Shown here: positions 2,414-24,904 of the stretch, piece by piece
Layout: each line of letters starts with the position of its first letter
How positions within the stretch are numbered: the first letter of the stretch is position 1
Assembly (NCBI GenBank): GCA_001804315.1
Contig: MHFT01000010.1
Location: forward strand, 1-24,904
Origin: Omnitrophica bacterium RIFCSPLOWO2_12_FULL_50_11
Lineage (GTDB): Bacteria > Omnitrophota > Omnitrophia > Omnitrophales > Danuiimicrobiaceae
Direction: 5' to 3'
Length of the DNA stretch: 24,904 bases
Notes under the pieces: generated by a model
Told to the model about the DNA's origin: nothing
The model's database searches: none
The model's input: only the letters and a program-made list of their open reading frames with translations
Made by a program: the position numbers and the translations under genes

Positions 2414-3481
2414 TAACTCCACGTCCTTCAACCGTGTCCGCAGCAATTCAGCTCGCTTGTAGTCTCGTTCCGCCGTTTTCAAAGTTACCGAACTTAACTT
2501 CTGCAGATGGGCGGGTTGCATGTACAAGAACAGTGCATTTAAATTTTTCTTACTCAAATTCTTAATAAATCCAACATCCACCCCCAACCGCATCAAAGAC
2601 AACAACCCAAGCGTTTCAGCGCTCGACATGAGCCGCGCAGATTTAAGGGCTCCGACGGCGCGCCAGATTTGATCTTCCAGTTTTGCCCGGCGCTTCTCTA
2701 CAAGATGGCTCCTTGCTTCCTTTTCATGTTCGATCACTTGCCGCATGACGCGGTCCAAGCCGTCGACAATTTCCTCTTCGGCTTGGCCGAGTGTCATCTG
2801 ATTTGAAAACTGAAAAAAATTACCGCTTGCCTGCGTTCCCTCCCCAAAAAAACCACGCGCCGTCAAGTTAAGTTTCGAGAGCGCCTGCAAAATTTTGTTC
2901 ACTTGTTTCGTCATCATCAACCCGGCCAGATGCACCATACACGAAGCACGAAGTCCTGTGCCCACATTGGTCGGACACGCCGTCAAATACCCAAGACTCT
3001 CGTGAAACGAATAGGAAAGCCTCTTGTCAAGAGCAGAATCCACTTTGTCAACGAGGCGCCATGCCTCAATTAAATTCAAACCCGATTGAAGCACTTGAAC
3101 CCGCAAATGGTCTTCTTCGAGCACCATGATGCTTATAACTTCATTGCGGCTTACGGCCAACCCCCGTTCGCCTTGATCGGCCGCATGCTCTCGGCTGATC
3201 AAGTGGCGCTCGAGCAAAAATTGCATGTCCAAATCTTTCAGGTTCTTGTAATCAAAAAAATATGAGTCCTTGAGCATGGGCAGGCTGACAACCGCTTTTT
3301 CTACCTCGTCAAGCAGTTGTCGTTGCCGAGCTTCCTCCAACCTTTCCGAAAACGCGTATCCGCTCAGATTTCGGGCGAGCCGGATCCGAGAACTCAGCAC
3401 AATATCATTTTCCGGTCCGGTTCCTCGTAGCCATTCACAGGTTGACGTTAAAAGTTCATTCAGTTCTTTAGTTGGTTCCAT
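2408..3481 (-). CDS. mcsB: Protein arginine kinase McsB (phosphagen/guanidino kinase family)
   Basis: Phosphagen-kinase signature CPTNVGTGLRAS. Lies between mcsA and clpC as in Firmicutes. ATG at 3481; a TTG two codons upstream at 3487 is the alternative start. Confidence 0.88.
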   Translation of the reverse strand: MEPTKELNELLTSTCEWLRGTGPENDIVLSSRIRLARNLSGYAFSERLEEARQRQLLDEVEKAVVSLPMLKDSYFFDYKNLKDLDMQFLLERHLISREHAADQGERGLAVSRNEVISIMVLEEDHLRVQVLQSGLNLIEAWRLVDKVDSALDKRLSYSFHESLGYLTACPTNVGTGLRASCMVHLAGLMMTKQVNKILQALSKLNLTARGFFGEGTQASGNFFQFSNQMTLGQAEEEIVDGLDRVMRQVIEHEKEARSHLVEKRRAKLEDQIWRAVGALKSARLMSSAETLGLLSLMRLGVDVGFIKNLSKKNLNALFLYMQPAHLQKLSSVTLKTAERDYKRAELLRTRLKDVELV

Positions 3482-7104: not shown

Positions 7105-8576
7105 ACTCCCTCCCCTTTTTCCCCATGTGGCGTAGTCAGATTTAAGTAGGAAACAGGTCTCAGCTGCGGAAATAAGATCACGTCACGAATAGACGGTGAA
7201 TTCGTAAGCAGCATAACGAGTCGGTCAATACCAATCCCAAGGCCACCCGCTGGAGGCATAGCGTACTCCAAGGCCGTCAGAAAATCTTCATCCAATTTCT
7301 TGTCGACGCCGATGATTTCCTTTTGCGCCATCAAACGTTCTCGCTGCTCGAATGGGTCGTTTAATTCCGAAAAAGCATTAGCAATTTCCATTCGCGCCAC
7401 ATACAACTCAAAACGTTCCACCACACCTTGATCATCTGTTCTCCGCTTCGCAAGCGGTGTCGTCACTGCCGGATAGTCAACTACAAATGTCGGATCGACC
7501 AACTCAGGCTCTACAAAACGGTCAAACGCTTCGTTTAGCTGATCTACCTCTTCTGGAAATTGATCAATAGGTATGCCAACTTCCCCGGCAAGTGATGAAA
7601 TCTTCCCACGCCGCCAATCCACGCCGCTTTTCTCTTTAAGTTCGTCGTAAAACGAAATGCGCTTCCAGGGTCTTTTAAAACCAATGTGGTACTCTCCGAA
7701 AGAAATCGTTTCACTTTGGCACACTTTACGCACCATAGTTGTAACGAGCTCCTCAGTCAGCACCATCATTGATTCGTAATTGGCATAAGCCTGATAAAGC
7801 TCTAGCATGGTGAATTCTGGATTGTGCTGGCTGGAAAGACCTTCGTTCCTAAAATTCCGATTCATCTCAAACACTTTTGAAAATCCACCCACCAAAAGGC
7901 GCTTTAAATAAAGTTCGGGCGCAACGCGAAGATAAAGATGCGTATCGAGCGCTTCATGATGTGTAACGAAGGGACGAGCCCGCGCGCCTCCCGGAATAGG
8001 CTGCATCATCGGAGTTTCCACTTCCGTAAAGCCGCGTTCCTCAAGGAACGATCGAATCTCACGCATTAACTGGCTCCTCTTGCGGAACACGTCTCGGACA
8101 CCTTCACTCATCATGAGATCCAAATATCGTTGACGATACCGAGCCTCTACGTCCCGAAGGCCGTGCCGCTTCTCAGGAAGCGTTCGGACAATTTTGGCAA
8201 GCAGCACAAAGCGTTCTACTTTAATTGATCTCTCACCCTTTTGCGTGATGAAAAGTGCACCCTCAATCCCCAGAATGTCACCAAGATCAAGCGATTCAAA
8301 AAATCCAAATTGCTCCTTGCCAACCAGATCGTATTTGACATAAATCTGGATTTTTTCGGTCTCATCCCTCACATCGGCAAAAGCGGACTTCCCATGCAGA
8401 CGACGTGTCATCACCCGGCCTGCGACTTTAACCTGCCTACCATCCTGAAACGGTTCCAAAAGATCCCGAATGATATCTGTGGGCACAAACCCATCCGAAT
8501 AAAGAGAAACGCCCTTCGCTTTTAAGCCCCTAATTTTACCCAGCCGTTCCTTCAATACTTCGGATGAGGAATCCAC
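7101..8576 (-). CDS. lysS: Lysine--tRNA ligase (class II)
   Basis: N-terminal OB-fold anticodon-binding domain followed by a class II aaRS catalytic core (FRNEG, GGLGIGIDRLVMLLT). SD GAGGT lies 4 nt upstream of the ATG. Confidence 0.93.
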   Translation of the reverse strand: MDSSSEVLKERLGKIRGLKAKGVSLYSDGFVPTDIIRDLLEPFQDGRQVKVAGRVMTRRLHGKSAFADVRDETEKIQIYVKYDLVGKEQFGFFESLDLGDILGIEGALFITQKGERSIKVERFVLLAKIVRTLPEKRHGLRDVEARYRQRYLDLMMSEGVRDVFRKRSQLMREIRSFLEERGFTEVETPMMQPIPGGARARPFVTHHEALDTHLYLRVAPELYLKRLLVGGFSKVFEMNRNFRNEGLSSQHNPEFTMLELYQAYANYESMMVLTEELVTTMVRKVCQSETISFGEYHIGFKRPWKRISFYDELKEKSGVDWRRGKISSLAGEVGIPIDQFPEEVDQLNEAFDRFVEPELVDPTFVVDYPAVTTPLAKRRTDDQGVVERFELYVARMEIANAFSELNDPFEQRERLMAQKEIIGVDKKLDEDFLTALEYAMPPAGGLGIGIDRLVMLLTNSPSIRDVILFPQLRPVSYLNLTTPHGEKGEGV

Positions 8577-8927: not shown

Positions 8928-9500
8928 ATGCCGCTCTTCATGCCGGTTCCGAAAAGGTCAGATCCAACGCTCATCAAAGCCCGTTCCGTATCCCCACCGT
9001 CGATTCTCCATTTACTCAGGCTGCTCGTGCTTCTTACCGTATTTGGTAGTTTCGTTTCAACACCGCCGCTGGGCGCGCAGTCAAGCAAGACACCTCAAGA
9101 ACTTTTATTGACCCCTATGAATGAAATCAATCAAGATCCTTATTTCGGCTGGGTTCTCGCGCAAAGAGACCGCGGCGCAGCGGTTGAGACAGCGAAGATT
9201 GAATACTTAATTGAGCGGATTCGGAAATCGCCTTACCTTTTTATCCGCAATCGAGTCGAATATTCAGCAGCCGAAGCGGCACGACATCTCACTTGGAAAT
9301 ACGAGCATGCACGCCGGTACGCGCTGACCGCACACGATTTCATCCGACACCTCGCAACGCGGTCGCTCGAATCGGGCCTCCTCTACCTCGTCAAACTTCC
9401 GAATGGAACCACGTATCCGGTGAAAGAACTCCTCGAAAATGAGCTTTTCGCACTCGAACAATCTCTCAACAAGAAACAACCCGCACACGTCCCGTTTTAG
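8928..9500 (+). CDS. Secreted/periplasmic protein, DUF5329-like (signal peptide ...LLVLLTVFGSFVSTPPLGAQS)
   Basis: The ORF track's 5' extension to 8730 overlaps repeat R3 and has no start signals. In-frame ATGs at 8913, 8928 and 8940 precede a hydrophobic signal-like segment. The C-terminal block IEYLIERIRKSPYLFIRN..YSAAEAARHL..KYE resembles the DUF5329 family. GTGACA-16-TAGAAT promoter-like boxes lie at 8901/8924. Confidence 0.5.
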   Translation: MPLFMPVPKRSDPTLIKARSVSPPSILHLLRLLVLLTVFGSFVSTPPLGAQSSKTPQELLLTPMNEINQDPYFGWVLAQRDRGAAVETAKIEYLIERIRKSPYLFIRNRVEYSAAEAARHLTWKYEHARRYALTAHDFIRHLATRSLESGLLYLVKLPNGTTYPVKELLENELFALEQSLNKKQPAHVPF

Positions 9501-9505
9501 TCCGG

Positions 9506-9740
9506 TTTTCTCATCAATTTGGCGGATTGATGAGAAAATCGCTTTGGACGCACGAAGTTGCGTCCACATGCACGCACGGGATGATCGACATCCCGGCGTG
9601 CAGTGCTGGCCCATAAAGGGCCGGCAAAGTTTTGCGCCCCTCTCAAAACGGGGCGCAAAAGACAACCCCTGTGGTACAAATGGACAAGCCTATTTGCACC
9701 ACAACCTCTTCGAGGGCATTTCTCATTGGCGATGAGAAAT
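9506..9740. other. Cluster of six stem-loops in the convergent intergenic region (candidate structured RNA or protein-binding array)
   Basis: Hairpins at 9506-9538 (13-bp stem TTTTCTCATCAAT/ATTGATGAGAAAA), 9546-9565, 9571-9600, 9608-9622, 9630-9660 (11-bp stem TTTTGCGCCCC/GGGGCGCAAAA), 9705-9716 (CCTC-TTCG-GAGG) and 9718-9740 (ATTTCTCAT/ATGAGAAAT). Confidence 0.4.
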
Positions 9741-9753
9741 GCGGGTTAGCTGC

Positions 9754-12180
9754 TCAGGCCAAGCGTTCGAAAAACTTCGTTTCTAGTTCCTCGAGGCTTC
9801 TGAGAACTCCTGCGTAAGCGCGCCCGATGGCTTCCTCAAAACTTTTCCCCTTCGCCAGATACAAGATGAAACTGCGGAAACGACTTGCCCCGTACGTTTC
9901 AATCAGATACCGGACGAAAGCCTGCGATTCGCCGTAGTAAACGTTCGCTGCACCTCGAGTTTGCTGTTTGGGATCGACAATCGTGAGCAATTTGAGCGGG
10001 AGGAGCTTTCCTTGTGCCGCTGCCAGTTTGACGGCACGATTCAAGTCCTCTCGTTCCTCATCTTCCTGAGCAAGTGCGAAACCCTCGTGCAGCCACGTGG
10101 GCACGTTCCTATGTTCGCCGGTCAGCTCGTAAAGCACCAGATGCGCCACCTCGTGCGGAAGCGTCGAACTGAAAAAATGCCGCGATCCCAGGTACGTTGT
10201 GATCAACTTTTTTCCGTAATCGGCGTCACCTGCTGCCCAACTCGGTGCGCCACGTTTCTGTTGAAACATCTCCTGGTTCTCAAAAATAAAAATCCGAACG
10301 CGGCCGTCCTCCTGCCAACCTCGTTTCGGACCGTCATCATCCAATCGTTTCAAGATGCGGCCAAGATTTTCTTCGGCGTGCACCAAAACCTTCTGAGAAA
10401 GATCGAAATCTCTGGTCTTCAGGTAAACATTAAAGTGATCTCCCTTAAGCTCCACCCACTCATCTTCCCGTAACGGTTCCTCGTGTTCAGGTTTGATGTG
10501 CTCAAGAACACCGGAGTGCACAAGTAGGGACGGATCGGTCTCCTCCAAATCACGGTGGTGAAGCCTTGCGTCATCTTGAGAAAAGCACGGACAACTGAAC
10601 ACAAAGAGGGCGAAAAATAAAGACGCAAGTTGCCTTCCTCTCGTACGAGCAGAAACAATGGCAAAGGATACAATGAGAACGAACAAGCAAAAAAGAGGAA
10701 ACAAATGCCCACCCTGCTGGTACACCGTCCTCGCCCTTGGAAGCAGCACAGTACGCACGAGCCCGCCGGCGACAAATGTGTCATGCCTATGGGTGTCTTC
10801 AACACGATCGACGACCTCGCCTGTAAAACTCACAAAAGCAGAAACGCCGGTGTTCGCAGCGCGGACAACGGGCACCCCATTTTCAATGGCTCTAAAAATC
10901 GATGCTTGAAGATGTTGGTACGCTGCCGCACTCTTTGAAAACCAAGCGTCGTTGGTCAACACCACGAGAAACTGTGCTCCTCGTTCGACCGCCCGCCGCG
11001 CAAGCGACGGAAAAGTGTCCTCGAAGCAAATGAGCGGCGAAAAGCGCTTCGAATTTTCTAACACAAATACGCTCACATCTTCACCCGCCCGGTAATCCCC
11101 CACGCCGAGCGAATCCGCGAGGCGCTCCAAACCAAACATACCGAAAAACGGCCGCCACGGCACATATTCACCAAACGGAACCAAGCGGACTTTGTCGTAG
11201 CGCGCTTCGAGCCCGGATCCACGTTCCACCAGAAAAACGCTGTTGTAAGATCCTCCTAAAACATCCAAATAAGGACTTCCCAAAACCATCGGAACGTTGA
11301 GCTCTTTTTGAAATTTCAATATTTCCTCACGTTTCGGATCCAAATTAAAGTAACCTGGAAACGCAGCCTCGGGCCAAAGAATTAGCTCGGGCTTGTCATG
11401 TCCCACAAACCGCGTGAGGGCAAGGTGCGTTTCGAGAATCTCCGCTTTCCGTCCTGGATCCCATTTCACGTCCTGCGCAATATTTCCTTGAATCACCGCA
11501 AGTCGAATCTCATCTCCACGGACTGTTGGCTCGTTTCCACGACCAAGGAAAAAAGAACTCGCCAGGATGACAACGAGCGCACCAGTACCAACGGTACCAG
11601 GTACAGAAGGGACAGGTTCACCGAACCTGTCCCTTCTGTACCTGGTACCGAGAAACTGCACCACAAAAAAAATCCCAACATTGACAAACATGACGAGCCA
11701 CGAAACACCGAACGCCCCCACAAAAGCTGCGATCCGTGCAATGCCAAGGTTGGATGTCTGGCTGTACGCCAGTAAATTCCAGCCGAAACCCCAAACGGGA
11801 ATCTCGGTCCGCACCCACTCGAGAACAGCCCACGCCGATGGAATCAGAAAAAGAAAGGCGAAGCGCTGCTTCGATTTCCATACCGAACAAAACACAACGC
11901 CAAAGAGGCCAAAATAAAACGCGTACAAAAAAGCAACAAACACCCAGCCAAAGTACGTGACGTGACGAAGCCACTCCACAGAGGCAAAGAAAAAGAGGAA
12001 ACCCGTCAAGTAGAAGAAACTGAACGCATCGCGCACACGCTCAAGCCGCGCACTCAGACAGAAGATGGGTACAAAAGCAATCCAAGCGAGCCACGAAAAT
12101 GAGAATTTTGGAAAGGAAAGAATAAGGAGCAGAGCGGCGGTCAGCGAACAAACAGTGCCGTGGTACGCGTTTAGCGTCAC
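9754..12180 (-). CDS. lnt: Apolipoprotein N-acyltransferase (Lnt, CN-hydrolase) fused to an extra TM helix and a C-terminal ~290-aa HExxH zinc-peptidase-like (peptidase MA-like) domain
   Basis: N-terminal half: multi-TM region plus nitrilase-fold motifs IRLAVIQGNI, WPEAAFPGYF, SPLICFEDTFP, VLTNDAWFSKSAAAYQH, RAANTGVSAFV. Then a TM/signal-like LFFALFVFSCPCF. Then a soluble domain with HEVAHLVLYELTG ... WLHEGFALAQ (HExxH + EGxA). Proposed start is GTG at 12180 with SD GGGGGGGAGGAA. The ORF-track extension to 12336 overlaps secA and is unlikely. Confidence 0.8.
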   Translation of the reverse strand: MTLNAYHGTVCSLTAALLLILSFPKFSFSWLAWIAFVPIFCLSARLERVRDAFSFFYLTGFLFFFASVEWLRHVTYFGWVFVAFLYAFYFGLFGVVFCSVWKSKQRFAFLFLIPSAWAVLEWVRTEIPVWGFGWNLLAYSQTSNLGIARIAAFVGAFGVSWLVMFVNVGIFFVVQFLGTRYRRDRFGEPVPSVPGTVGTGALVVILASSFFLGRGNEPTVRGDEIRLAVIQGNIAQDVKWDPGRKAEILETHLALTRFVGHDKPELILWPEAAFPGYFNLDPKREEILKFQKELNVPMVLGSPYLDVLGGSYNSVFLVERGSGLEARYDKVRLVPFGEYVPWRPFFGMFGLERLADSLGVGDYRAGEDVSVFVLENSKRFSPLICFEDTFPSLARRAVERGAQFLVVLTNDAWFSKSAAAYQHLQASIFRAIENGVPVVRAANTGVSAFVSFTGEVVDRVEDTHRHDTFVAGGLVRTVLLPRARTVYQQGGHLFPLFCLFVLIVSFAIVSARTRGRQLASLFFALFVFSCPCFSQDDARLHHRDLEETDPSLLVHSGVLEHIKPEHEEPLREDEWVELKGDHFNVYLKTRDFDLSQKVLVHAEENLGRILKRLDDDGPKRGWQEDGRVRIFIFENQEMFQQKRGAPSWAAGDADYGKKLITTYLGSRHFFSSTLPHEVAHLVLYELTGEHRNVPTWLHEGFALAQEDEEREDLNRAVKLAAAQGKLLPLKLLTIVDPKQQTRGAANVYYGESQAFVRYLIETYGASRFRSFILYLAKGKSFEEAIGRAYAGVLRSLEELETKFFERLA
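11594..11649. repeat. Perfect 56-bp palindrome (27-bp arms GGTACCAGGTACAGAAGGGACAGGTTC / GAACCTGTCCCTTCTGTACCTGGTACC, 3-nt centre) lying in-frame inside the lnt CDS
   Basis: Read directly from the sequence. It encodes the polar peptide GTRYRRDRFGEPVPSVPGT between two hydrophobic Lnt segments. Confidence 0.9.
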
Positions 12181-12259
12181 TTCCTCCCCCCCTTGTTCGC
12201 CACAACGCGTTGGCGGAATCCGTCCCAAAACGCTTTGTGGCGAACAAGGGGGGGAGGAA
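12181..12259 (-). promoter_or_regulatory. Hairpin with a 25-bp perfect stem (TTCCTCCCCCCCTTGTTCGCCACAA ... TTGTGGCGAACAAGGGGGGGAGGAA, 29-nt loop) in the secA-lnt spacer; on the mRNA its 3' arm contains the lnt SD and abuts the GTG start
   Basis: Inverted repeat verified base by base. Minus-strand transcript reads 5'-UUCCUCCCCCCC...GGGGGGGAGGAA-GUG. Confidence 0.6.
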
Positions 12260-12293
12260 AAATCGCTAAACAGATACGTGCCGTGAAACACTT

Positions 12294-14957
12294 TTATCCG
12301 CCGTGGCACTTCTTGTACTTCTTTCCGCTTCCGCAAGGGCAGGGTTCGTTGCGGCCGATCTTAGCTTGACTTCGCCGAAAGGTCGCCGGACGGTCAGCCG
12401 ATTCTCGACGACGCCGGCCGCCAGTGTCAGGAACCGGCTCAGCCCCCGGAGCAAAATCATGTGTCCCTAGACGACCCATTTGCTGATCTTGCAGCAAGGC
12501 CGATGGCCCAACACCAGCGTCGAACCCGCTAGCTTCGGGATGCAGATATTCCTGGCGGCTTGGACTTATTACCGTCGACACTTTCTCCTCACGCACGGCT
12601 TGAACCTTGAAGAGGAACTCGATCGCCTCTTCCTTAATGGAAGAAACCATCTCCTCAAACATTTGAAACGACTCCTGCTTGTACTCGACGAGGGGATTGC
12701 GCTGGCCGTAGGCCCGGAGGTAAATCCCCTCGCGAAGCTCATCGATCGAACGAAGATGTTCTTTCCACTTGGAATCGATCACGTGAAGGAGAATGTAACG
12801 GCTTAAAAAGTGGATCCTGTCTTTTCCAAACTTTTCTTCCCGGCTCCGGTACGCTGCTTTTACTTTTTCAACGATTTCCTCCCGAAACGCGTCAAATGTG
12901 TCTTTCGTAAAATAAGGATCCTCCACGTCAATCCCACACTTCGCACGGAGCGCTGTTCTCAATCCTTCGCCGCTGCGTTCTTCTTCGCGGATCTCTGGGT
13001 TCATGTATTTCAGAATCAGCTCGTCGGCAAAATTTTCGATCATTTCGATCACGTGATCGGTCAAATCGGCGCTTTCCAGCACCCGGTTTCGTTCCTCGTA
13101 AATGATCTCTCTTTGCCGGTTCATCACGTCGTCGTATTCCAGAAGATGCTTGCGAATCTCAAAGTTTCGTCCTTCTACGCGCCTTTGTGCCGTTTCCACC
13201 GCGCGCGTGACAAGCGGATGCTGAATCTCCTGACCTTCCTCCATCCCAAGACGCTGCATCAAACCGGAAATCTTGTCCGATCCAAAAATCCGCATCAGAT
13301 CATCTTCAAGCGAAAGGTAAAACTTGGAGCTGCCAGGATCACCCTGCCGGCCTGTGCGGCCGCGCAGCTGATTGTCAATACGCCGCGCTTCATGCCGTTC
13401 CGTGCCCGTCACGGCCAAGCCCCCTTTTTGCGCCACACTTTCCCCCAAAACAATATCGGTCCCCCTGCCGGCCATGTTCGTCGCGATTGTAATCGCGCCC
13501 GGTTGACCTGCCCGCGCAACGATTTCGGCTTCCTGCTCGTGGTACTTGGCGTTCAGCACCGTGTGCGCAAGGCCGCGCCGCTTGAGCATTTGACTCAAGT
13601 GTTCCGACTTCTCGATGGATATCGTACCCACCAAAACCGGCCGGCTTTGGTTGTGAATCTCAGCAATTTCCTCGACGATCGCATTAAACTTTTCGCGTTC
13701 GGTGCGGTAAATGCAATCGGGGTGGTTGTGGCGGATGAGCGGCCGATTGGTTGGAATGACAAGCACCTCGAGCTTGTAAATTTTTTCGAATTCAGCCGCT
13801 TCGGTCGCCGCGGTTCCCGTCATACCGGCGAGTTTTTTGTACATGCGGAAATAATTCTGAAAGGTAATCGTTGCAAGCGTTTGATTTTCCCGCTCGATCT
13901 TGACGCGCTCTTTGGCTTCAAGCGCTTGATGCAGTCCATCCGAAAAGCGGCGTCCGGGCATTAAGCGCCCCGTAAACTCATCGACGATGACAACTTTGCC
14001 GTCCTTGACCATGTAATCCACGTCGCGCCTGAAAAGCACGTGCGCCCGAAGGGCTTGACTAATGTGGTGGATGACATCGATTTGCGTATTTTCATAAATA
14101 TTTTCAACATTCAAAAGCGACTCGCAGCGCGCAATTCCTTCTTCTTTGAGCGTCGCGGTATTCGCTTTTTCGTCCACCTCGTAATGGACACTTTTTTCGA
14201 GCCGTGGAATGATTCTGTCGATCTGGTAGTATTTTTCCGTCGACTCCTCAGCCGGACCAGAAATAATGAGCGGCGTTCGCGCTTCATCGACTAAGATGGA
14301 GTCGACTTCGTCTACAATCGCGTAATGAAGTTTGCGCTGGACGCGGTCACGCACATCGGTCACCATGTTGTCTCTTAGATAATCGAACCCAAATTCATTG
14401 TTCGTGCCGTAGGTAATGTCCGACTGGTATGCCAACTGACGCGCTGCTGGATCCATCTCGTGCTGAATGACGCCAACCGTTAAACCCAAAAATTCGTAGA
14501 TCGGTCCCATCCAAAACCGGTCTCGTTTGGCGAGGTAGTCATTGACGGTCACCAAATGAACCCCTTTCTCCGTGAGTGCGTTCAGATAAATGGGCAAGGT
14601 GGCGACGAGCGTTTTTCCTTCTCCAGTCGCCATCTCGGCAATCATGCCCCGATGAAGCGCCAGGCCGCCCACGAGCTGACAGTCAAAGTGCCGCATCTTG
14701 ATCGCTCGACGCGACGCTTCCCGGACGACTGCAAATGCTTCCGGAAGCAAATCGTCAAGCTTCTCGCCTTTTGACAAACGAGCGCGGAATTCGTCTGTTT
14801 TCGCCCGCAGCGCTTCGTCTGAAAGTGCTTTCACGGACGGCTCAAGCAAGTTGATTTGATCCACGACCGGCTGCATGCTTTTTAGGATCCGATCGTTTCG
14901 CGAACCGAAGACTTTGGTTAACACGGCGGCTGCGCCGCCAAGAATTTTCATCAACAT
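12294..14957 (-). CDS. secA: Preprotein translocase ATPase SecA (with C-terminal zinc-binding [14 protein letters not shown])
   Basis: [24 protein letters not shown]-terminus, DEAD-like motor motifs and the C-terminal Zn finger. It starts 14 bp downstream of the prfB stop. Confidence 0.95.
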
Positions 14958-14971
14958 TTGCTTTTACGACA

Positions 14972-16091
14972 TTACGTCTTTTTCGATTGTTCCCGTGCCT
15001 CGTGTTTTAAATACGCCTCGATGAAATCGTCAAGCTCCCCGTCCATGACTGCTTGACCGTTTGAGGTTTCGTAATTCGTTCGGTGGTCTTTGACCAATGT
15101 GTACGGATGGAACACGTAAGAGCGAATTTGCGAGCCCCACGCAATTTCCTTTTTTTCGCCGTACTGCGTTTTGAGCTTTCGCTCCTCTTCCTCGCGCTTT
15201 TTGGCGTACAACCGCGCCTTTAAAATTTTCATTGCCACTTGTTTGTTTTGGTGCTGCGAACGTTCATTCTGACACTGGGCGACAATTCCTGTCGGAAGGT
15301 GCGTAATGCGCACGGCGCTTGACGTTTTATTCACGTGCTGACCGCCCGCACCTCCTGCGCGGAACGTGTCAATGCGCAAATCTTTCTCGTTGACTGAAAT
15401 GTCCATTTCTTCCTCGACTTCCGCAATCACATCCACTGAGGCAAACGAAGTGTGGCGTCTTTTATTAGCGTCAAAGGGTGAGATGCGCACGAGGCGGTGG
15501 ACACCGCGCTCAGCCTTGAGGTACCCGTAAGCGTAAGGTCCTCGGACAAAAAAGGTGGCGCTTTTGGTTCCCGCTTCCTCACCTGCAAGTGAATCCGCAA
15601 GTTGGACGGAAAAGTCCCGATTTTCTGCCCACCGCACGTACATGCGAAGAAGCATCTGTGCCCAATCGCAGGATTCCGTTCCGCCCGCGCCGGCATTGAT
15701 GCTCACAATCGCGCTGTTGGCATCGAGCGGACCGGAAAGAAGCCTCTGAAACTCAAGCATCTCAACTTCACGCTCGACCTTTTTGAAGTCTCCCTCGAGC
15801 TCTTTTAAGGACGCGTCATCGTCACCGACAATGCTCAAGAGTTCTCCGAGGTCTTTTACCTCCTGGTGTGACTTTTTCCACGGATCAATGAGCCGCTTGA
15901 GCGATTTGAGCTGGTTGACAGAGTTTTTCGCCTCGGCAGGAGCGTCCCAAAAATCCGGCTGGGACATCTTTTCGTTTAAAGACTGGATTTCACGTTCTTT
16001 TCGGTCGAGGTCAAAGATACCCCCTAATCTCTTCGAGCTTCGCGCCCGTTTGTTGGATGGATTTTGCAAGATTTTCGATTCGTTCTTTCAT
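14972..16091 (-). CDS. prfB: Peptide chain release factor 2, expressed through a programmed +1 ribosomal frameshift
   Basis: Frame 1 is MKERIENLAKSIQQTGAKLEEIRGYL then UGA. The shift site on the minus strand, AGGGGG UAU CUU UGA C, spans about 16010-16025. Frame 2 continues FDLDRKEREIQ... through GGQ (RAGGAGGQHVNKT) to 14972. Confidence 0.92.
16004..16025 (-). other. prfB +1 frameshift cassette: internal SD AGGGGG, slippery CUU, in-frame UGA followed by C
   Basis: Sequence AGGGGGTATCTTTGAC on the minus strand. The ORF-track entry 16011..16196 ends at this UGA. Confidence 0.9.
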
Positions 16092-17237: not shown

Positions 17238-17825
17238 ATGAAGAAAATATGGTCATGCGGTTTGCTGATACTGTTAGTGGGATGTTCGGTTCAAAATCCA
17301 AAGGACACCGAACGGGCTATGGCAGTCGCAAGCGAGTTTATAACACTGCTTTATCAATCCAATGACAATGTAAGTCGAGCATTCGCTTTAACATCAAACA
17401 ATTATCAAGTGGTTTCAAATGAAGGAATGACCCGAACGCTGCGGGATGTCGCAGGCGAAATTGTCGGAAATTATCAAAGACACGATCAAGGTACCGATGT
17501 GACTCGTTTGCTCGCACCCGATGCACCTTCCAATGGAAGAGTTATACGGTTTAACGTTGCTTATGAAAACGACCCTGAAGGCCAGCTATTGGTTACCATG
17601 ATAAAAGAAGGCGGTGTGTGGAAGGTCATGGGCTTCAATATCAACTCTCCAAAAATTGCTGGCCTTCAGGGTGACCCTGAAGGCCAGCTATTGGTTACCA
17701 TGATAAAAGAAGGCGGTGTGTGGAAGGTCATGGGCTTCAATATCAACTCTCCAAAAATTGCTGAGAGCCAAGCACGAGGAACGCTGCAACAACCTCCTGG
17801 TGGCAACCCGACGACGGCAACGTAA
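17238..17825 (+). CDS. Lipoprotein (signal peptide MKKIWSCGLLILLVGC with lipobox) with an NTF2/DUF4878-like fold and an internal perfect tandem duplication
   Basis: ATG at 17238 is preceded by a -10-like GATAAT 6 nt upstream. It has a lipobox LVGC. The ORF-track 5' extension to 16962 lacks coding signal. Confidence 0.65.
   Translation: MKKIWSCGLLILLVGCSVQNPKDTERAMAVASEFITLLYQSNDNVSRAFALTSNNYQVVSNEGMTRTLRDVAGEIVGNYQRHDQGTDVTRLLAPDAPSNGRVIRFNVAYENDPEGQLLVTMIKEGGVWKVMGFNINSPKIAGLQGDPEGQLLVTMIKEGGVWKVMGFNINSPKIAESQARGTLQQPPGGNPTTAT
17571..17763 (+). repeat. In-frame tandem duplication, period 102 bp (34 aa), two units 100% identical over 91 nt
   Basis: gaccctgaaggccagctattggttaccatgataaaagaaggcggtgtgtggaaggtcatgggcttcaatatcaactctccaaaaattgctg occurs at 17571-17661 and again at 17673-17763. 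It encodes DPEGQLLVTMIKEGGVWKVMGFNINSPKIA twice. Confidence 0.95.
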
Positions 17826-20097: not shown

Positions 20098-20876
20098 CCT
20101 CCGCAAAAACGATCACGAAATTCGTTTTGGCGTCAAGTTTGGGCTTGTGGCTAATCAGCTTTTTTCAAAAAGACCGTTTTCCGGATAAATCGGCCATTTT
20201 GCCAGAACTTTCTCGCCCACCCATTCAAACTGAAACTGATGCCCAGCCGTTTGAAATTCAGCGAAGAGGTGTGACCTATCGAGTCACGCCGATGCACGAC
20301 TATGAATTATATGGCATGGTGGTTTCTGAGAATGACTTCCGAGATTTTTGGGAAAAAGTACACGAGGATCTGAAAGATCATATCAACGTAAAGGATTTGT
20401 GCGTCATTTGGGGTCCGAATGTTGAATCTGGAATCTATCAGAAACTAGAATTCAGCTCAGGCGAATGGACTTGTTATTATGAGTGGAAGACGGGATCTGA
20501 CCGCGAATCTTGGGCTCAGTTTCAACCCAACGCGCTTTCCAACAACCATTTGCTTTCAGACAAAAGTGAGATTCTGGCGAAGACCGCACTAGCGAAACGA
20601 GGAGACCAAATTCATTTTAAAGGTCATTTAGTTAAGTACAGTTCAAATTTCATGAAGGCACCAAGGATTTCAAGTACCGTTAGAGAAGACAACGGTTGCG
20701 AAGTCGTCTATTTGACCCAGCTTGAAATACTCAAGAAGGCGAATCGTTTCTGGAGGTCTCTATTTTCATTGTCTGGTCGCGTGGCGTTGGTTTGTATCAT
20801 TCTGTTTATGAGCCACTTTCTTATCGAAATTGGCAAGGTCGTAAAGCACGAAGGGCGGAAGCAAAATGGGGACTGA
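20094..20876 (+). CDS. Hypothetical membrane-anchored protein (N- and C-terminal TM segments)
   Basis: GTG start overlapping the upstream stop (GTGA). No family recognised. Same AT-rich composition as the island. Confidence 0.5.
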   Translation: MTSAKTITKFVLASSLGLWLISFFQKDRFPDKSAILPELSRPPIQTETDAQPFEIQRRGVTYRVTPMHDYELYGMVVSENDFRDFWEKVHEDLKDHINVKDLCVIWGPNVESGIYQKLEFSSGEWTCYYEWKTGSDRESWAQFQPNALSNNHLLSDKSEILAKTALAKRGDQIHFKGHLVKYSSNFMKAPRISSTVREDNGCEVVYLTQLEILKKANRFWRSLFSLSGRVALVCIILFMSHFLIEIGKVVKHEGRKQNGD

Positions 20877-20880
20877 TAGG

Positions 20881-20916
20881 CAATTTTCGGAGCGCTCCGA
20901 AAATTGTGTTATTTTG
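20881..20916 (+). terminator. Candidate intrinsic terminator of the island operon: perfect 26-bp palindrome CAATTTTCGGAGC/GCTCCGAAAATTG followed by TGTTATTTTG
   Basis: It begins 5 nt after the stop at 20876. Stem plus T-rich tract. Confidence 0.5.
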
Positions 20917-21098
20917 ATACACCCTCAAAGCATCGTAAGGGTAAGTCTTATCATAAGATAGATCGTGAGCGAGCTTCAGAATGACCTTTTCTCCGTAGGG
21001 TGCGCGCACAGCCCTGAAAAAGGAAAAGGGAAGATGTCATGCCACCTTTTTGTGCCGTTTCGGTACCGCTGGTGAAGGGACAATCAAAGAATCAATGG

Positions 21099-24404: not shown

Positions 24405-24437
24405 CCAAAACTGTAGGGGCGCCCCTTGTGGGCGCCC
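24405..24437 (-). terminator. GC hairpin (GGGCGCCC-CTTGT-GGGCGCCC) between convergent rpsT and holA. The U-tract is on the minus strand, so this is a likely holA terminator and possibly bidirectional.
   Basis: 8-bp all-GC stem at 24417-24437. The minus-strand flank is UACAGUUUUGG. Confidence 0.45.
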
Positions 24438-24473
24438 GAGATGACAGCGAACGGACGCGCACAAGGCCCGCCC

Positions 24474-24904
24474 CTACGATTGCCCAACAGTGGCGAGGAA
24501 TGTTTCCATCGCAATCGTAGGCTCGCAGGCGCCGGTTTTGACCTTCCAATCAGTTTCCCACAGTTCGTTGAGAAGCTGCTCGAGTGTTTCGAGGTCAAAC
24601 TGTCGCACTTGATTGAGGAACACTTGAAGGCGAAAAGGCGGAATCCTGACCGCCCGAGCGACGTCGTCGCGGCTTCCCCCACGCGCCAAAATTTTCTTTG
24701 CCTGCCAAATCCGCTTAAGCTGCCAATGGATGAGCCCAATGGTACTGACCACATCACCGCTTAAATCACAGAAATAATGCAAAATCTTGATCGCTTCGCT
24801 CGTATCCTTCCGGGCAAGTGCATCAGCCAAATCAAACGGTTCATACCGGAGCCATTCGATCGCGAGTTTTTCGACCGCTCTTTCATCAATGGTCTCACCG
24901 TCCG
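24474..24904 (-). CDS. holA: DNA polymerase III delta subunit, C-terminal part (5' end beyond the window)
   Basis: The C-terminal region ...LKRIWQAKKILARGGSRDDVARAVRIPPFRLQVFLNQVRQFDLETLEQLLNELWETDWKVKTG is typical of HolA. It is convergent with rpsT, a common neighbourhood. Confidence 0.7.
   Translation of the reverse strand, partial: DGETIDERAVEKLAIEWLRYEPFDLADALARKDTSEAIKILHYFCDLSGDVVSTIGLIHWQLKRIWQAKKILARGGSRDDVARAVRIPPFRLQVFLNQVRQFDLETLEQLLNELWETDWKVKTGACEPTIAMETFLATVGQS

What the first reader, a model, noticed from the sequence alone, without database searches (positions are those of the whole stretch)
12181..12259. 25-bp perfect-stem hairpin that base-pairs the lnt Shine-Dalgarno and abuts its GTG start, 34 nt after the secA stop
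The minus-strand transcript reads 5'-UUCCUCCCCCCCUUGUUCGCCACAA-(29 nt loop)-UUGUGGCGAACAAGGGGGGGAGGAA-GUG. The 3' arm is the only SD candidate for Lnt (GGGGGGGAGGAA). It is fully paired to a poly-C/anti-SD 5' arm. The 25-bp duplex is long enough to be an RNase III substrate.

This suggests a translational gate on lnt, such as a thermosensor, a site needing helicase or ribosome stand-by, or a decoupling from secA. It could also be a processing site that splits the prfB-secA-lnt transcript.
Basis: partly seen in the sequence, partly recalled or inferred. Interest (0 to 1): 0.65.

Follow-up and report, generated by a model that had tools for sequence, protein, structure and literature searches.

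The report
Mobile palindromic repeat inserted in lnt start
The hairpin is real and extremely stable, but it is one copy of a small repeated palindromic DNA element that landed in the first codons of lnt. It is not a control device that evolved for lnt, so it is a fairly ordinary selfish-DNA insertion in an unusual place.

Summary
There is a perfect 25-bp stem with a 29-nt loop, 34 nt after the secA stop and abutting a GTG. The core folds at -64.7 kcal/mol.

The hairpin is the centre of a 115-nt near-palindrome (12163-12277) flanked by an 8-nt direct repeat, CACGGCAC. Related copies (85-94% identical) lie at unrelated operon junctions in other metagenome contigs: mtnA-like to thiolase, and glycosyltransferase to HAD hydrolase. 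In those copies the GTG is not conserved, and GGAGG is kept in only one of the two. So it is a MITE-like repeat, not an lnt-specific riboregulator.

Deleting the element plus one repeat copy (123 nt, 41 codons, stop-free) restores a normal Lnt N-terminus. That N-terminus starts at a GTG (12291) 2 nt after the secA stop. Lnt is therefore probably still translated from that coupled start, straight through the hairpin. The element-borne GTG at 12180 would need about 53 kcal/mol of unfolding, or RNase III cleavage.

A thermosensor and an intrinsic terminator are rejected.

Relatives carry unrelated hairpins at the same secA-lnt junction, so some selected role for a hairpin there is not excluded.

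Novelty: a new member of a known kind. Interest is low to moderate.

The parts
12294..12296 (-). secA stop codon TAA
   Evidence: ORF 12294-14957 matches SecA_DEAD, SecA_PP_bind, SecA_SW and a terminal SEC-C motif.
12289..12291 (-). In-frame GTG 2 nt after the secA stop. This is the inferred pre-insertion (ancestral) lnt start, preceded by a weak SD-like GGCGGA.
   Evidence: The frame is open from here through the hairpin. Removing the element plus one direct repeat gives (M)FHGTVCSLTAALLLILSFPKFS, a normal Lnt N-terminus. Opening cost is 11.5 kcal/mol in isolation.
12278..12285 (-). Left copy of the 8-nt direct repeat CACGGCAC (putative target-site duplication)
   Evidence: A symmetric 8-mer repeat has P of about 6e-4 in shuffled flanks.
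12163..12277 (-). 115-nt near-palindromic repeat element, GTATCTGTTTAGCG...CGCTAAACGCGTAC. The two halves match at 44/57 positions.
   Evidence: One search gives the boundaries and half identity. Related copies are in L094 (85%) and L115 (94% over 67 nt).
12264..12271 (-). Outer stem, 5' side: GUUUAGCG
   Evidence: Pairs with 12169-12176 in the minimum-free-energy fold. Conserved in L094.
12235..12259 (-). 5' arm of the perfect 25-bp stem (C-rich, anti-SD-like UUCCUCCCCCCC...)
12206..12234 (-). 29-nt loop with its own 5-bp stem (GCGUU/AACGC). It is inverted relative to the outer parts in the L094 copy.
   Evidence: for the fold. for loop identity to L094: 25/29 flipped against 14/29 in the same orientation.
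12181..12205 (-). 3' arm of the stem (G-rich, SD-like GGGGGGGAGGAA)
   Evidence: P(unpaired) is 0.002.
12178..12180 (-). It sits in a 3x3 internal loop between the main stem and the outer stem.
   Evidence: The same position is CTG in L094 and GTT in L115.
12169..12176 (-). Outer stem, 3' side: CGCUAAAC (codons 2-4 after GTG 12180)
12155..12162 (-). Right copy of the 8-nt direct repeat CACGGCAC. It encodes the second HGT of ...AYHGTVCS...
9754..12180 (-). lnt fused to a C-terminal Peptidase_MA_2 domain. The ORF extends to 12291 if the ancestral start is used.
   Evidence: Pfam LNT_N, CN_hydrolase and Peptidase_MA_2. Homologues P0002-P0120. N-terminal alignment.

Best explanation
The hairpin is the folded form of a 115-nt, almost fully palindromic, non-coding repeat element (MITE-like) in an Omnitrophota genome. 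The element inserted with an 8-bp target duplication (CACGGCAC) into codons 3-5 of lnt. The original lnt GTG start lies 2 nt after the secA stop.

Because the element is a palindrome, its transcript always has a C-rich, anti-SD-like 5' arm and a G-rich, SD-like 3' arm, whichever way it inserts. The 'SD paired to anti-SD next to a GTG' is therefore a property of the element, not an adaptation of lnt.

The insertion adds exactly 123 nt (41 codons) and has no stop codon. The most likely way Lnt is still made is as follows. Ribosomes that finish secA re-initiate at the old GTG (12291). They then translate through the hairpin, unwinding it with the ribosome's own helicase activity. The product is Lnt with a 41-residue cytoplasmic N-terminal insertion.

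The very stable stem probably also lowers lnt output relative to secA. It may serve as an RNase III site or a 3'-end protector for the secA message.

- Shown: the structure, the repeat family, the direct repeat, the in-frame arithmetic and the restored N-terminus.
- Inferred: transposition as the origin, which start codon is used, and any effect on expression.
For: **It is a repeat at unrelated loci.**
- L094 positions 3097-3203 are 85% identical to the window element. That copy fills the whole spacer between an IF-2B/mtnA-like gene and a thiolase.
- L115 positions 2274-2339 are 94% identical over 67 nt. That copy lies between a GT2 glycosyltransferase and a HAD hydrolase, in a contig with 43% GC against 50% for the window.
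- A fourth trace appears in the spurious ORF P0121.

**The start signals are not conserved.** The GTG is CTG in L094 and GTT in L115. GGAGG is lost in L094.

**Insertion signature.** An 8-nt direct repeat lies at symmetric positions, with P of about 6e-4.

**The excised site looks like a normal gene start.** Removing 123 nt (41 codons) restores TAAAAGTG-TTT-CAC-GGC-ACT..., which reads MFHGTVCSLTAALLLIL. This fits homologue N-termini. Relatives without hairpins have secA-lnt junctions with spacers of 5-36 nt.

**The element is compatible with coding sequence.** The core has no stop codon in any of six frames. Only 1.7% of composition-matched random palindromes share this.

**Energetics favour the upstream start.** GTG 12180 needs about 52.7 kcal/mol to open, against 11.5 for GTG 12291.

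**The genome is rich in such repeats.**
- Other repeat families are shared between the window and L094.
- The junction hairpin of relative L084 is itself repeated 3 kb away in the same locus.
- In relative L006 the lnt frame is open through its own hairpin to an ATG that overlaps the secA stop. No canonical start lies after that hairpin.

**Stem changes between copies mostly keep pairing.** C7/G7 becomes C6/G6, and C-G or U-A pairs become U·G. One bulged A is the exception.
Against: - Only three DNA copies were found, and only one lies in about 31 kb of this genome. Copy number per genome is therefore unknown.
- The direct repeat is seen only in the window copy.
- No autonomous transposase partner was identified.
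- The window copy does carry both GGAGG and a GTG in frame. That could be an adaptive gain of a new start.
- The frame being open has a prior of about 1/3, so it does not by itself prove use of GTG 12291.
- The four closest relatives with the same synteny all have some unrelated hairpin at this junction. That junction spacer is the most structured spacer in each locus. This hints at selection for a hairpin at this position rather than pure selfish insertion.
- No expression data exist.
Confidence: 0.6

Rival explanations
1. A dedicated translational gate on lnt. Lnt starts at GTG 12180 using the GGGGGGGAGGAA SD. The 5' arm sequesters that SD. Expression would then need a helicase, a stand-by mechanism or RNase III cleavage of the stem to free the ribosome-binding site.
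For: - The SD-like run and the GTG are adjacent, and both are specific to the window copy.
- The Lnt N-terminus from GTG 12180 is only 8-9 residues longer than in homologues.
- The 25-bp duplex meets the length commonly given for RNase III substrates.
- RNase III cleavage of repeat hairpins in mRNA is documented for Correia elements (PMC2649163, PMC10969869).
Against: - The element is not lnt-specific.
- The opening cost of about 53 kcal/mol makes unaided initiation implausible.
- GGAGG is only 2 nt from the GTG.
- An upstream coupled start exists with the frame open.
- There is no covariation evidence, because no close relative has the same hairpin.
Confidence: 0.2
2. An intercistronic mRNA element kept by selection at the secA-lnt junction, whatever its origin. 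A stable hairpin after secA would protect the prfB-secA message from 3' exonucleases, or partly block transcription or translation into lnt. That would set a high SecA to low Lnt ratio. Different lineages would have recruited different palindromic repeats for the same job.
For: - 9 of 17 secA-lnt junctions carry strong hairpins of unrelated sequence (z below -2.8). All 5 members of the closest clade do.
- In L086, L087 and L088 the junction spacer is the most structured spacer in the locus. In L087 and L088 the others have z near 0.
- REP and ERIC elements have known effects on mRNA stability (PMC10969869 for ERIC; REP from general knowledge).
Against: - 8 of 17 junctions have only 5-36-nt spacers and no strong hairpin.
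- The excised window site has no hairpin.
- In L084 the same repeat also sits in another spacer.
- The sample of spacers is small.
- Tolerance of insertions at this spot would give the same pattern.
Confidence: 0.3
3. An intrinsic transcription terminator or attenuator between secA and lnt.
For: It is a very stable G+C-rich hairpin directly after a highly expressed gene.
Against: - No U-tract follows the stem on either strand. The minus strand continues GUGACGCUAAAC and the plus strand continues AAAAUCGC.
- The terminator scan does not list it.
- The 29-nt loop is atypical for a terminator.
Confidence: 0.04
4. An RNA thermometer, or an assembly or amplification artefact such as a fold-back chimera.
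For: - An SD paired in a stem is the architecture of RNA thermometers.
- Contigs L002 and L003 garble or stop inside the hairpin.
Against: - The stem is still folded at 95 C, at -16.9 kcal/mol.
- The sequence is identical in L001, and as far as the contig reaches in L003.
- Diverged copies exist at other loci in independent data sets.
Confidence: 0.02

Closest known systems
Correia repeat-enclosed elements (CREE/NEMIS) of Neisseria
   Same: - Non-coding element of about 100-150 nt with inverted repeats of about 25 bp.
- Sits at gene junctions and 5' of genes, and is co-transcribed.
- Its inverted repeats form an mRNA hairpin that RNase III binds or cleaves, changing expression of the neighbouring gene (PMC2649163, PMC10969869).
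   Different: - No sequence relation.
- Correia elements duplicate TA and carry IHF and promoter sites.
- This element has an 8-bp direct repeat, is palindromic almost throughout, has C-rich and G-rich (anti-SD/SD-like) arms, and so far looks low-copy.
- RNase III cleavage is untested here.
Rickettsia palindromic elements (RPE)
   Same: Palindromic repeats that insert in frame into protein-coding genes without stops, so the host protein gains a peptide insertion (PMC10969869). Here 123 nt (41 codons) are inserted. The core has no stop in six frames.
   Different: - RPEs are about 150 bp, belong to other sequence families, and are found in Rickettsia.
- Here only one of three copies lies inside an ORF's original limits. 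The other two sit at gene junctions.
ERIC/IRU and REP/BIME intergenic palindromes of enterobacteria
   Same: Imperfect palindromes in transcribed spacers of operons. They fold in mRNA and alter the stability or expression of flanking cistrons (ERIC: PMC10969869; REP: general knowledge).
   Different: - REPs are about 35 nt, number in the hundreds, and are linked to RAYT transposases.
- ERIC is 127 bp with a different sequence.
- No RAYT or comparable copy number is shown here.
MITEs derived from IS66-family insertion sequences
   Same: IS66 elements make 8-bp direct repeats and have 20-30-bp terminal inverted repeats that start GTAAGCG (PMC11946415; 8-bp repeats also in PMC3281130). The window element has an 8-nt direct repeat. 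Its ends read GTACGCG (6/7) and GTATCTG (4/7).
   Different: The resemblance is short and partial. No IS66-type transposase with matching ends was sought or found. This is a lead, not a classification.
Cis-acting SD-sequestering hairpins (RNA thermometers, structures that enforce translational coupling, RNase III-activated leaders such as E. coli adhE or phage lambda N)
   Same: The ribosome-binding region is base-paired to an upstream complementary strand.
   Different: - Those structures are gene-specific, imperfect, and tuned to melt or to be opened by the upstream ribosome.
- This one is a perfect 25-bp stem stable to above 95 C.
- It lies 34 nt beyond the upstream stop and is shared with unrelated genes.

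Membership tests
MITE-like palindromic repeat | Small, non-coding element (under about 300-500 bp) | tested here: met
   115 nt, with no ORF of its own. Rfam gives only sub-threshold matches to generic long hairpins.
MITE-like palindromic repeat | Terminal inverted repeats | tested here: met
   The halves match at 44/57. This includes the GTA termini, an 8-bp outer block and 25 perfect bp.
MITE-like palindromic repeat | Copies at unrelated genomic locations | tested here: met
   The window copy lies between secA and lnt. The L094 copy lies between an mtnA-like gene and a thiolase. The L115 copy lies between a glycosyltransferase and a HAD hydrolase. P0121 gives a further trace. Copy number within one genome was not established: there is 1 copy in about 31 kb.
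MITE-like palindromic repeat | Target-site duplication flanking the element | tested here: inconclusive
   An 8-nt CACGGCAC repeat flanks the window copy (P about 6e-4). None is detectable at L094 or L115.
MITE-like palindromic repeat | A cognate autonomous insertion sequence with the same ends | not tested
There is only a partial likeness to IS66 ends (PMC11946415).
Lnt-specific translational riboregulator | Structure conserved at the orthologous position, with compensatory changes | tested here: not met
   Relatives carry unrelated hairpins or none at the secA-lnt junction. The homologous hairpin is found at non-orthologous loci instead.
RNA thermometer | Stem melts in the physiological temperature range | tested here: not met
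   -64.7 kcal/mol at 37 C, -36.7 at 70 C and -16.9 at 95 C.
Intrinsic terminator | G+C-rich hairpin with a short loop, followed by a U-run | tested here: not met
   No T-run follows on either strand. The scan does not report it. The loop is 29 nt.
RNase III processing site | At least about 20-22 bp of uninterrupted dsRNA within a transcript | tested here: met
   25 perfect pairs lie inside the prfB-secA-lnt co-directional unit. This meets the length criterion only.
RNase III processing site | Cleavage in vivo, and presence of rnc in the genome | not testable with these tools
   There are no transcript-end data. rnc is not in the 31 kb available.
REP/BIME (RAYT-associated) | Palindromes of about 20-40 nt in hundreds of copies, with a RAYT gene | tested here: not met
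   The element is 115 nt with 1 copy in about 31 kb. The size and density criteria fail on the sequence available. Presence of a RAYT gene was not tested.

The most novel reading that the evidence does not exclude
The family could be a portable 'anti-SD/SD clamp' that works in either orientation. Because it is palindromic, it always delivers a sequestered Shine-Dalgarno sequence at its 3' end when it lands in an operon junction. Hosts may have repeatedly recruited such repeats (here and, convergently, in other Omnitrophota) as insulators. These would uncouple a low-abundance downstream gene (lnt) from a high-abundance upstream one (secA). RNase III cleavage, or inversion of the loop (flip/flop isomers as seen between the window and L094), could act as the switch.
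Probability: 0.12. Interest if true: 0.6.

Novelty: new member of a known kind. Interest (0 to 1): 0.3.

Why it matters
- It corrects an attractive but wrong reading. A 'riboregulator' that pairs an SD sequence turns out to be generic repeat DNA.
- It affects annotation. The lnt start, and the gene calls in public assemblies, are disturbed by this palindrome and by a second one. One assembly calls a 642-aa Lnt that lacks its N-terminal domain.
- It documents a previously undescribed palindromic repeat family in Omnitrophota, an uncultivated phylum. The copy here sits in frame in the 5' end of the conserved lnt gene.
- It shows that the secA-lnt junction of this phylum repeatedly hosts unrelated hairpin repeats. 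That offers a natural test of whether such repeats are recruited to set expression ratios within operons.

Tried and rejected
**Searches that led nowhere**
- An exact 25-mer scan of JGI metagenome contigs gave 0 hits. Only the gapped two-arm pattern found a relative. The other 24 stretches from that scan are unrelated short matches.
- The same gapped pattern in viral contigs gave 0 hits.
It returned only relatives at 41% identity or less, and not the source genome. It did still supply secA-lnt junctions for comparison.
- The search of the 1.84-billion-protein library with the in-frame peptide gave only one hit, which matched in nine repeated stretches at 34% identity. I did not inspect it and treated it as unrelated.
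- P0121 has no DNA on record.
- Rfam gave nothing at gathering thresholds. At relaxed thresholds it gave only generic matches to miRNA-precursor hairpins.
- Extending the same genome by about 6 kb to the left and 1-2 kb to the right found no further copy.

**Ideas rejected**
- Thermosensor: rejected on stability.
- Intrinsic terminator: rejected.
- Integron attC site: considered by eye because of the GTTTAGC...GCTAAAC ends. Rejected because the order of the core sites is the reverse of attC, and each departs from the RYYYAAC/GTTRRRY consensus. This rests on inspection and general knowledge.
- Unfolding of the stem by the ribosome terminating at secA: rejected because the stop lies 34 nt upstream of the stem.
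- Covariation statistics: not attempted. Only three copies exist, and one of them is rearranged.

Full report
**1. What is there**

On the minus strand the window carries prfB (14972-16069), secA (12294-14957) and lnt. The lnt gene is fused to a C-terminal Peptidase_MA_2 domain. Lnt homologues are named Omnitrophica/Omnitrophota in public records. Apart from the same organism, the best are only 46-58% identical.

The reported hairpin is exactly as described. It has 25/25 complementary arms (12259-12235 and 12205-12181) and a 29-nt loop. It begins 34 nt after the secA TAA, and a GTG (12180-12178) follows directly.

The hairpin is part of a larger inverted repeat with 43-nt arms at 88% complementarity. 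This includes an 8-bp outer stem, GUUUAGCG/CGCUAAAC, that pairs codons 2-4 after the GTG. It also includes a 5-bp stem inside the loop.

The 151-nt context folds at -88 kcal/mol (z = -10.45). The 79-nt core folds at -64.7 kcal/mol.

The sequence is identical in an independent assembly of the same organism (L001). Two other contigs garble or stop inside it. It is therefore real, and it is hard to sequence through.

**2. Which start codon**

Homologue N-termini align with the residue T of ...GTVCSLTAALLLIL. No in-frame ATG, GTG or TTG lies between GTG 12180 and the first transmembrane helix. However, the lnt frame is open through the entire hairpin. Upstream of it lies an in-frame GTG at 12291-12289, only 2 nt after the secA stop.

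**3. It is a repeated element, not an lnt device**

An exact scan for the 25-mer found nothing. A gapped scan for the mid-stem of both arms found L094.

In L094 a copy 85% identical fills the whole spacer between an IF-2B/mtnA-like gene and a thiolase gene. The copy runs from the last base of the upstream stop codon to the thiolase ATG, and it folds equally well (z = -8.3).

I then queried the protein database with a six-frame peptide made from the element. This recovered a glycosyltransferase whose ORF reads into a third copy (L115). That copy is 94% identical over the loop plus the 3' arm. Its 5' arm is interrupted by a nested hairpin, and a HAD-hydrolase ATG follows 12 nt after the arm. The same query also recovered a spurious ORF (P0121) that crosses a fourth, nested copy.

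In these copies the window's GTG is CTG or GTT. GGAGG is lost in L094 (GAAGGGA).

L094 also shares two other non-coding repeats with the window, at 98% and 87% identity. It probably comes from the same lineage. L115 has 43% GC against 50% for the window, so the element occurs in more than one lineage.

**4. Insertion signature**

In the window the palindrome extends to GTA...TAC ends, giving 115 nt (12277-12163). It is flanked by the 8-nt direct repeat CACGGCAC (12285-12278 and 12162-12155). A symmetric 8-mer repeat arises in about 6e-4 of shuffled flanks.

The element plus one repeat copy is 123 nt, or 41 codons, with no stop. Removing it gives TAA-AA-GTG TTT CAC GGC ACT GTT..., which reads (M)FHGTVCSLTAALLLILSFPKFS. 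This is a normal Lnt N-terminus, starting 2 nt after the secA stop. Relatives without hairpins have similarly tight junctions, with spacers of 5-36 nt.

The 79-nt core has no stop codon in any of six frames. Only 1.7% of composition-matched random palindromes share this property.

The direct repeat is not visible at L094 or L115.

The ends (GTACGCG and GTATCTG) and the 8-bp repeat recall IS66-family ends (GTAAGCG with 8-bp repeats; PMC11946415, PMC3281130). This is only a lead.

**5. Differences between copies**

The C7/G7 run in the window is C6/G6 in L094. Other stem changes turn C-G or U-A pairs into U·G pairs. One bulged A appears in L094. Pairing is therefore largely kept, but there are too few events for statistics.

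The loop of L094 is inverted relative to the asymmetric outer parts. Loop identity is 25/29 when flipped and 14/29 in the same orientation. The 5' outer part scores 36 in the same orientation and 22 when flipped. This suggests inversion between the perfect arms (flip/flop isomers).

**6. Consequences for lnt**

In the isolated RNA the SD-like run has P(unpaired) of 0.002. Opening -15..+15 around GTG 12180 costs about 52.7 kcal/mol. Opening around GTG 12291 costs 11.5 kcal/mol. In the cell that region would also be cleared by the ribosome terminating at secA.

The stop is 34 nt from the stem, so by my estimate of ribosome reach the terminating ribosome cannot itself open the stem. The stem is still folded at 95 C, so a thermosensor is excluded. 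No U-run follows the stem, so it is not an intrinsic terminator.

The most economical route to Lnt is re-initiation at the old GTG 12291 followed by translation through the element. That would add 41 cytoplasmic residues before the first transmembrane helix. This step is inference.

Use of GTG 12180 would need the stem to be removed first. RNase III could do this, as documented for Correia-element hairpins (PMC2649163, PMC10969869).

**7. The junction in relatives**

The prfB-secA-lnt synteny is widespread. Of 17 junctions examined, 9 contain strong hairpins (z below -2.8), all unrelated in sequence. All 5 members of the closest clade have one.

In L086, L087 and L088 the junction spacer is the most structured spacer in the locus. 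In L084 the junction hairpin is itself a repeat found again 3 kb away. In L006 the lnt frame runs through its hairpin to an ATG that overlaps the secA stop.

This pattern fits a tolerated landing site for palindromic repeats. It also fits selection for a hairpin at this junction. I cannot separate the two readings.

**8. Comparison and verdict**

The element behaves like the known bacterial palindromic repeats and MITEs:
- like Correia/NEMIS in its hairpin within mRNA;
- like RPE in its in-frame, stop-free insertion;
- like ERIC/REP in its residence in operon spacers.

It has no sequence relation to any of them and no Rfam family. No paper in the library describes such repeats in Omnitrophota.

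It is a new member of a known kind. Interest is low to moderate.

Noticed in passing
window 11592-11650 (minus strand, inside lnt): A second perfect palindrome: 28-nt arms, 3-nt loop, 100% complementary. It lies in frame in the variable linker between the LNT_N and CN_hydrolase domains and encodes ...RYRRDRFGEPVPSVPG.... It can be read as a 45-nt palindrome plus a GGTACC repeat, 51 nt or 17 codons. In assembly L001 exactly this stretch is garbled, and the gene caller there started lnt after it (642 aa, no LNT_N domain). Its core GGGACAGGTTC also occurs in a 22-bp-stem hairpin in relative L084 at 8145-8200.
   Followed up: partly
window 9497-9749 (spacer between the convergent lnt and DUF5329 genes); L094 4361-4613: The whole 253-nt spacer folds into about seven consecutive hairpins (MFE -138 kcal/mol, z = -10.4). 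It is 98.4% identical to a stretch of L094 upstream of the mtnA-like gene. Contigs of the source organism break inside it: L116 starts at window 9648, and L001 ends just past lnt.
   Followed up: partly
window 20875-21006; L094 6180-6305, 5338-5396, 7193-7227: Another intergenic repeat of about 130 nt, containing a 26-nt palindrome. It has one copy in the window and three full or partial copies in L094 at 85-89% identity.
   Followed up: no
window 17572-17692: A 19-nt unit, ACCCTGAAGGCCAGCTATT, is present three times in alternating orientation. Assemblies L121-L123 align with an overlap of about 90 nt here, which suggests a copy-number difference or a collapse at this repeat.
   Followed up: no
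window 24413-24477: A REP-like imperfect palindrome, GTAGGGGCGCCCCTTGTGGGCGCCCG / CGGACGCGCACAAGGCCCGCCCCTAC. Assemblies L122 and L124 differ from the window exactly here by an insertion or deletion.
   Followed up: no
window 9754-10500 (C-terminal part of the lnt ORF): Lnt is fused to a C-terminal Peptidase_MA_2 domain of about 190 residues. The same fusion occurs in only two of the listed homologues (P0002, P0003).
   Followed up: no
L014 3696-3989; L005, L006, L011, L086, L087, L088 secA-lnt spacers: Unrelated hairpins built from short repeated motifs occupy the same junction in other Omnitrophota and allied genomes. Examples are TCCATAGTCCACAGT units forming a fold of about 290 nt in L014, GTACGGCGTACGGAG in L006, AAAGTCAAAAG in L086 and GTCATTGCGAGCGAAGCGAAGCAATC in L088.
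   Followed up: partly
L120 2651-3307 (JGI 3300025311): A strain variant of the source organism. It is identical to window 6022-3373 and then diverges into different genes.
   Followed up: no
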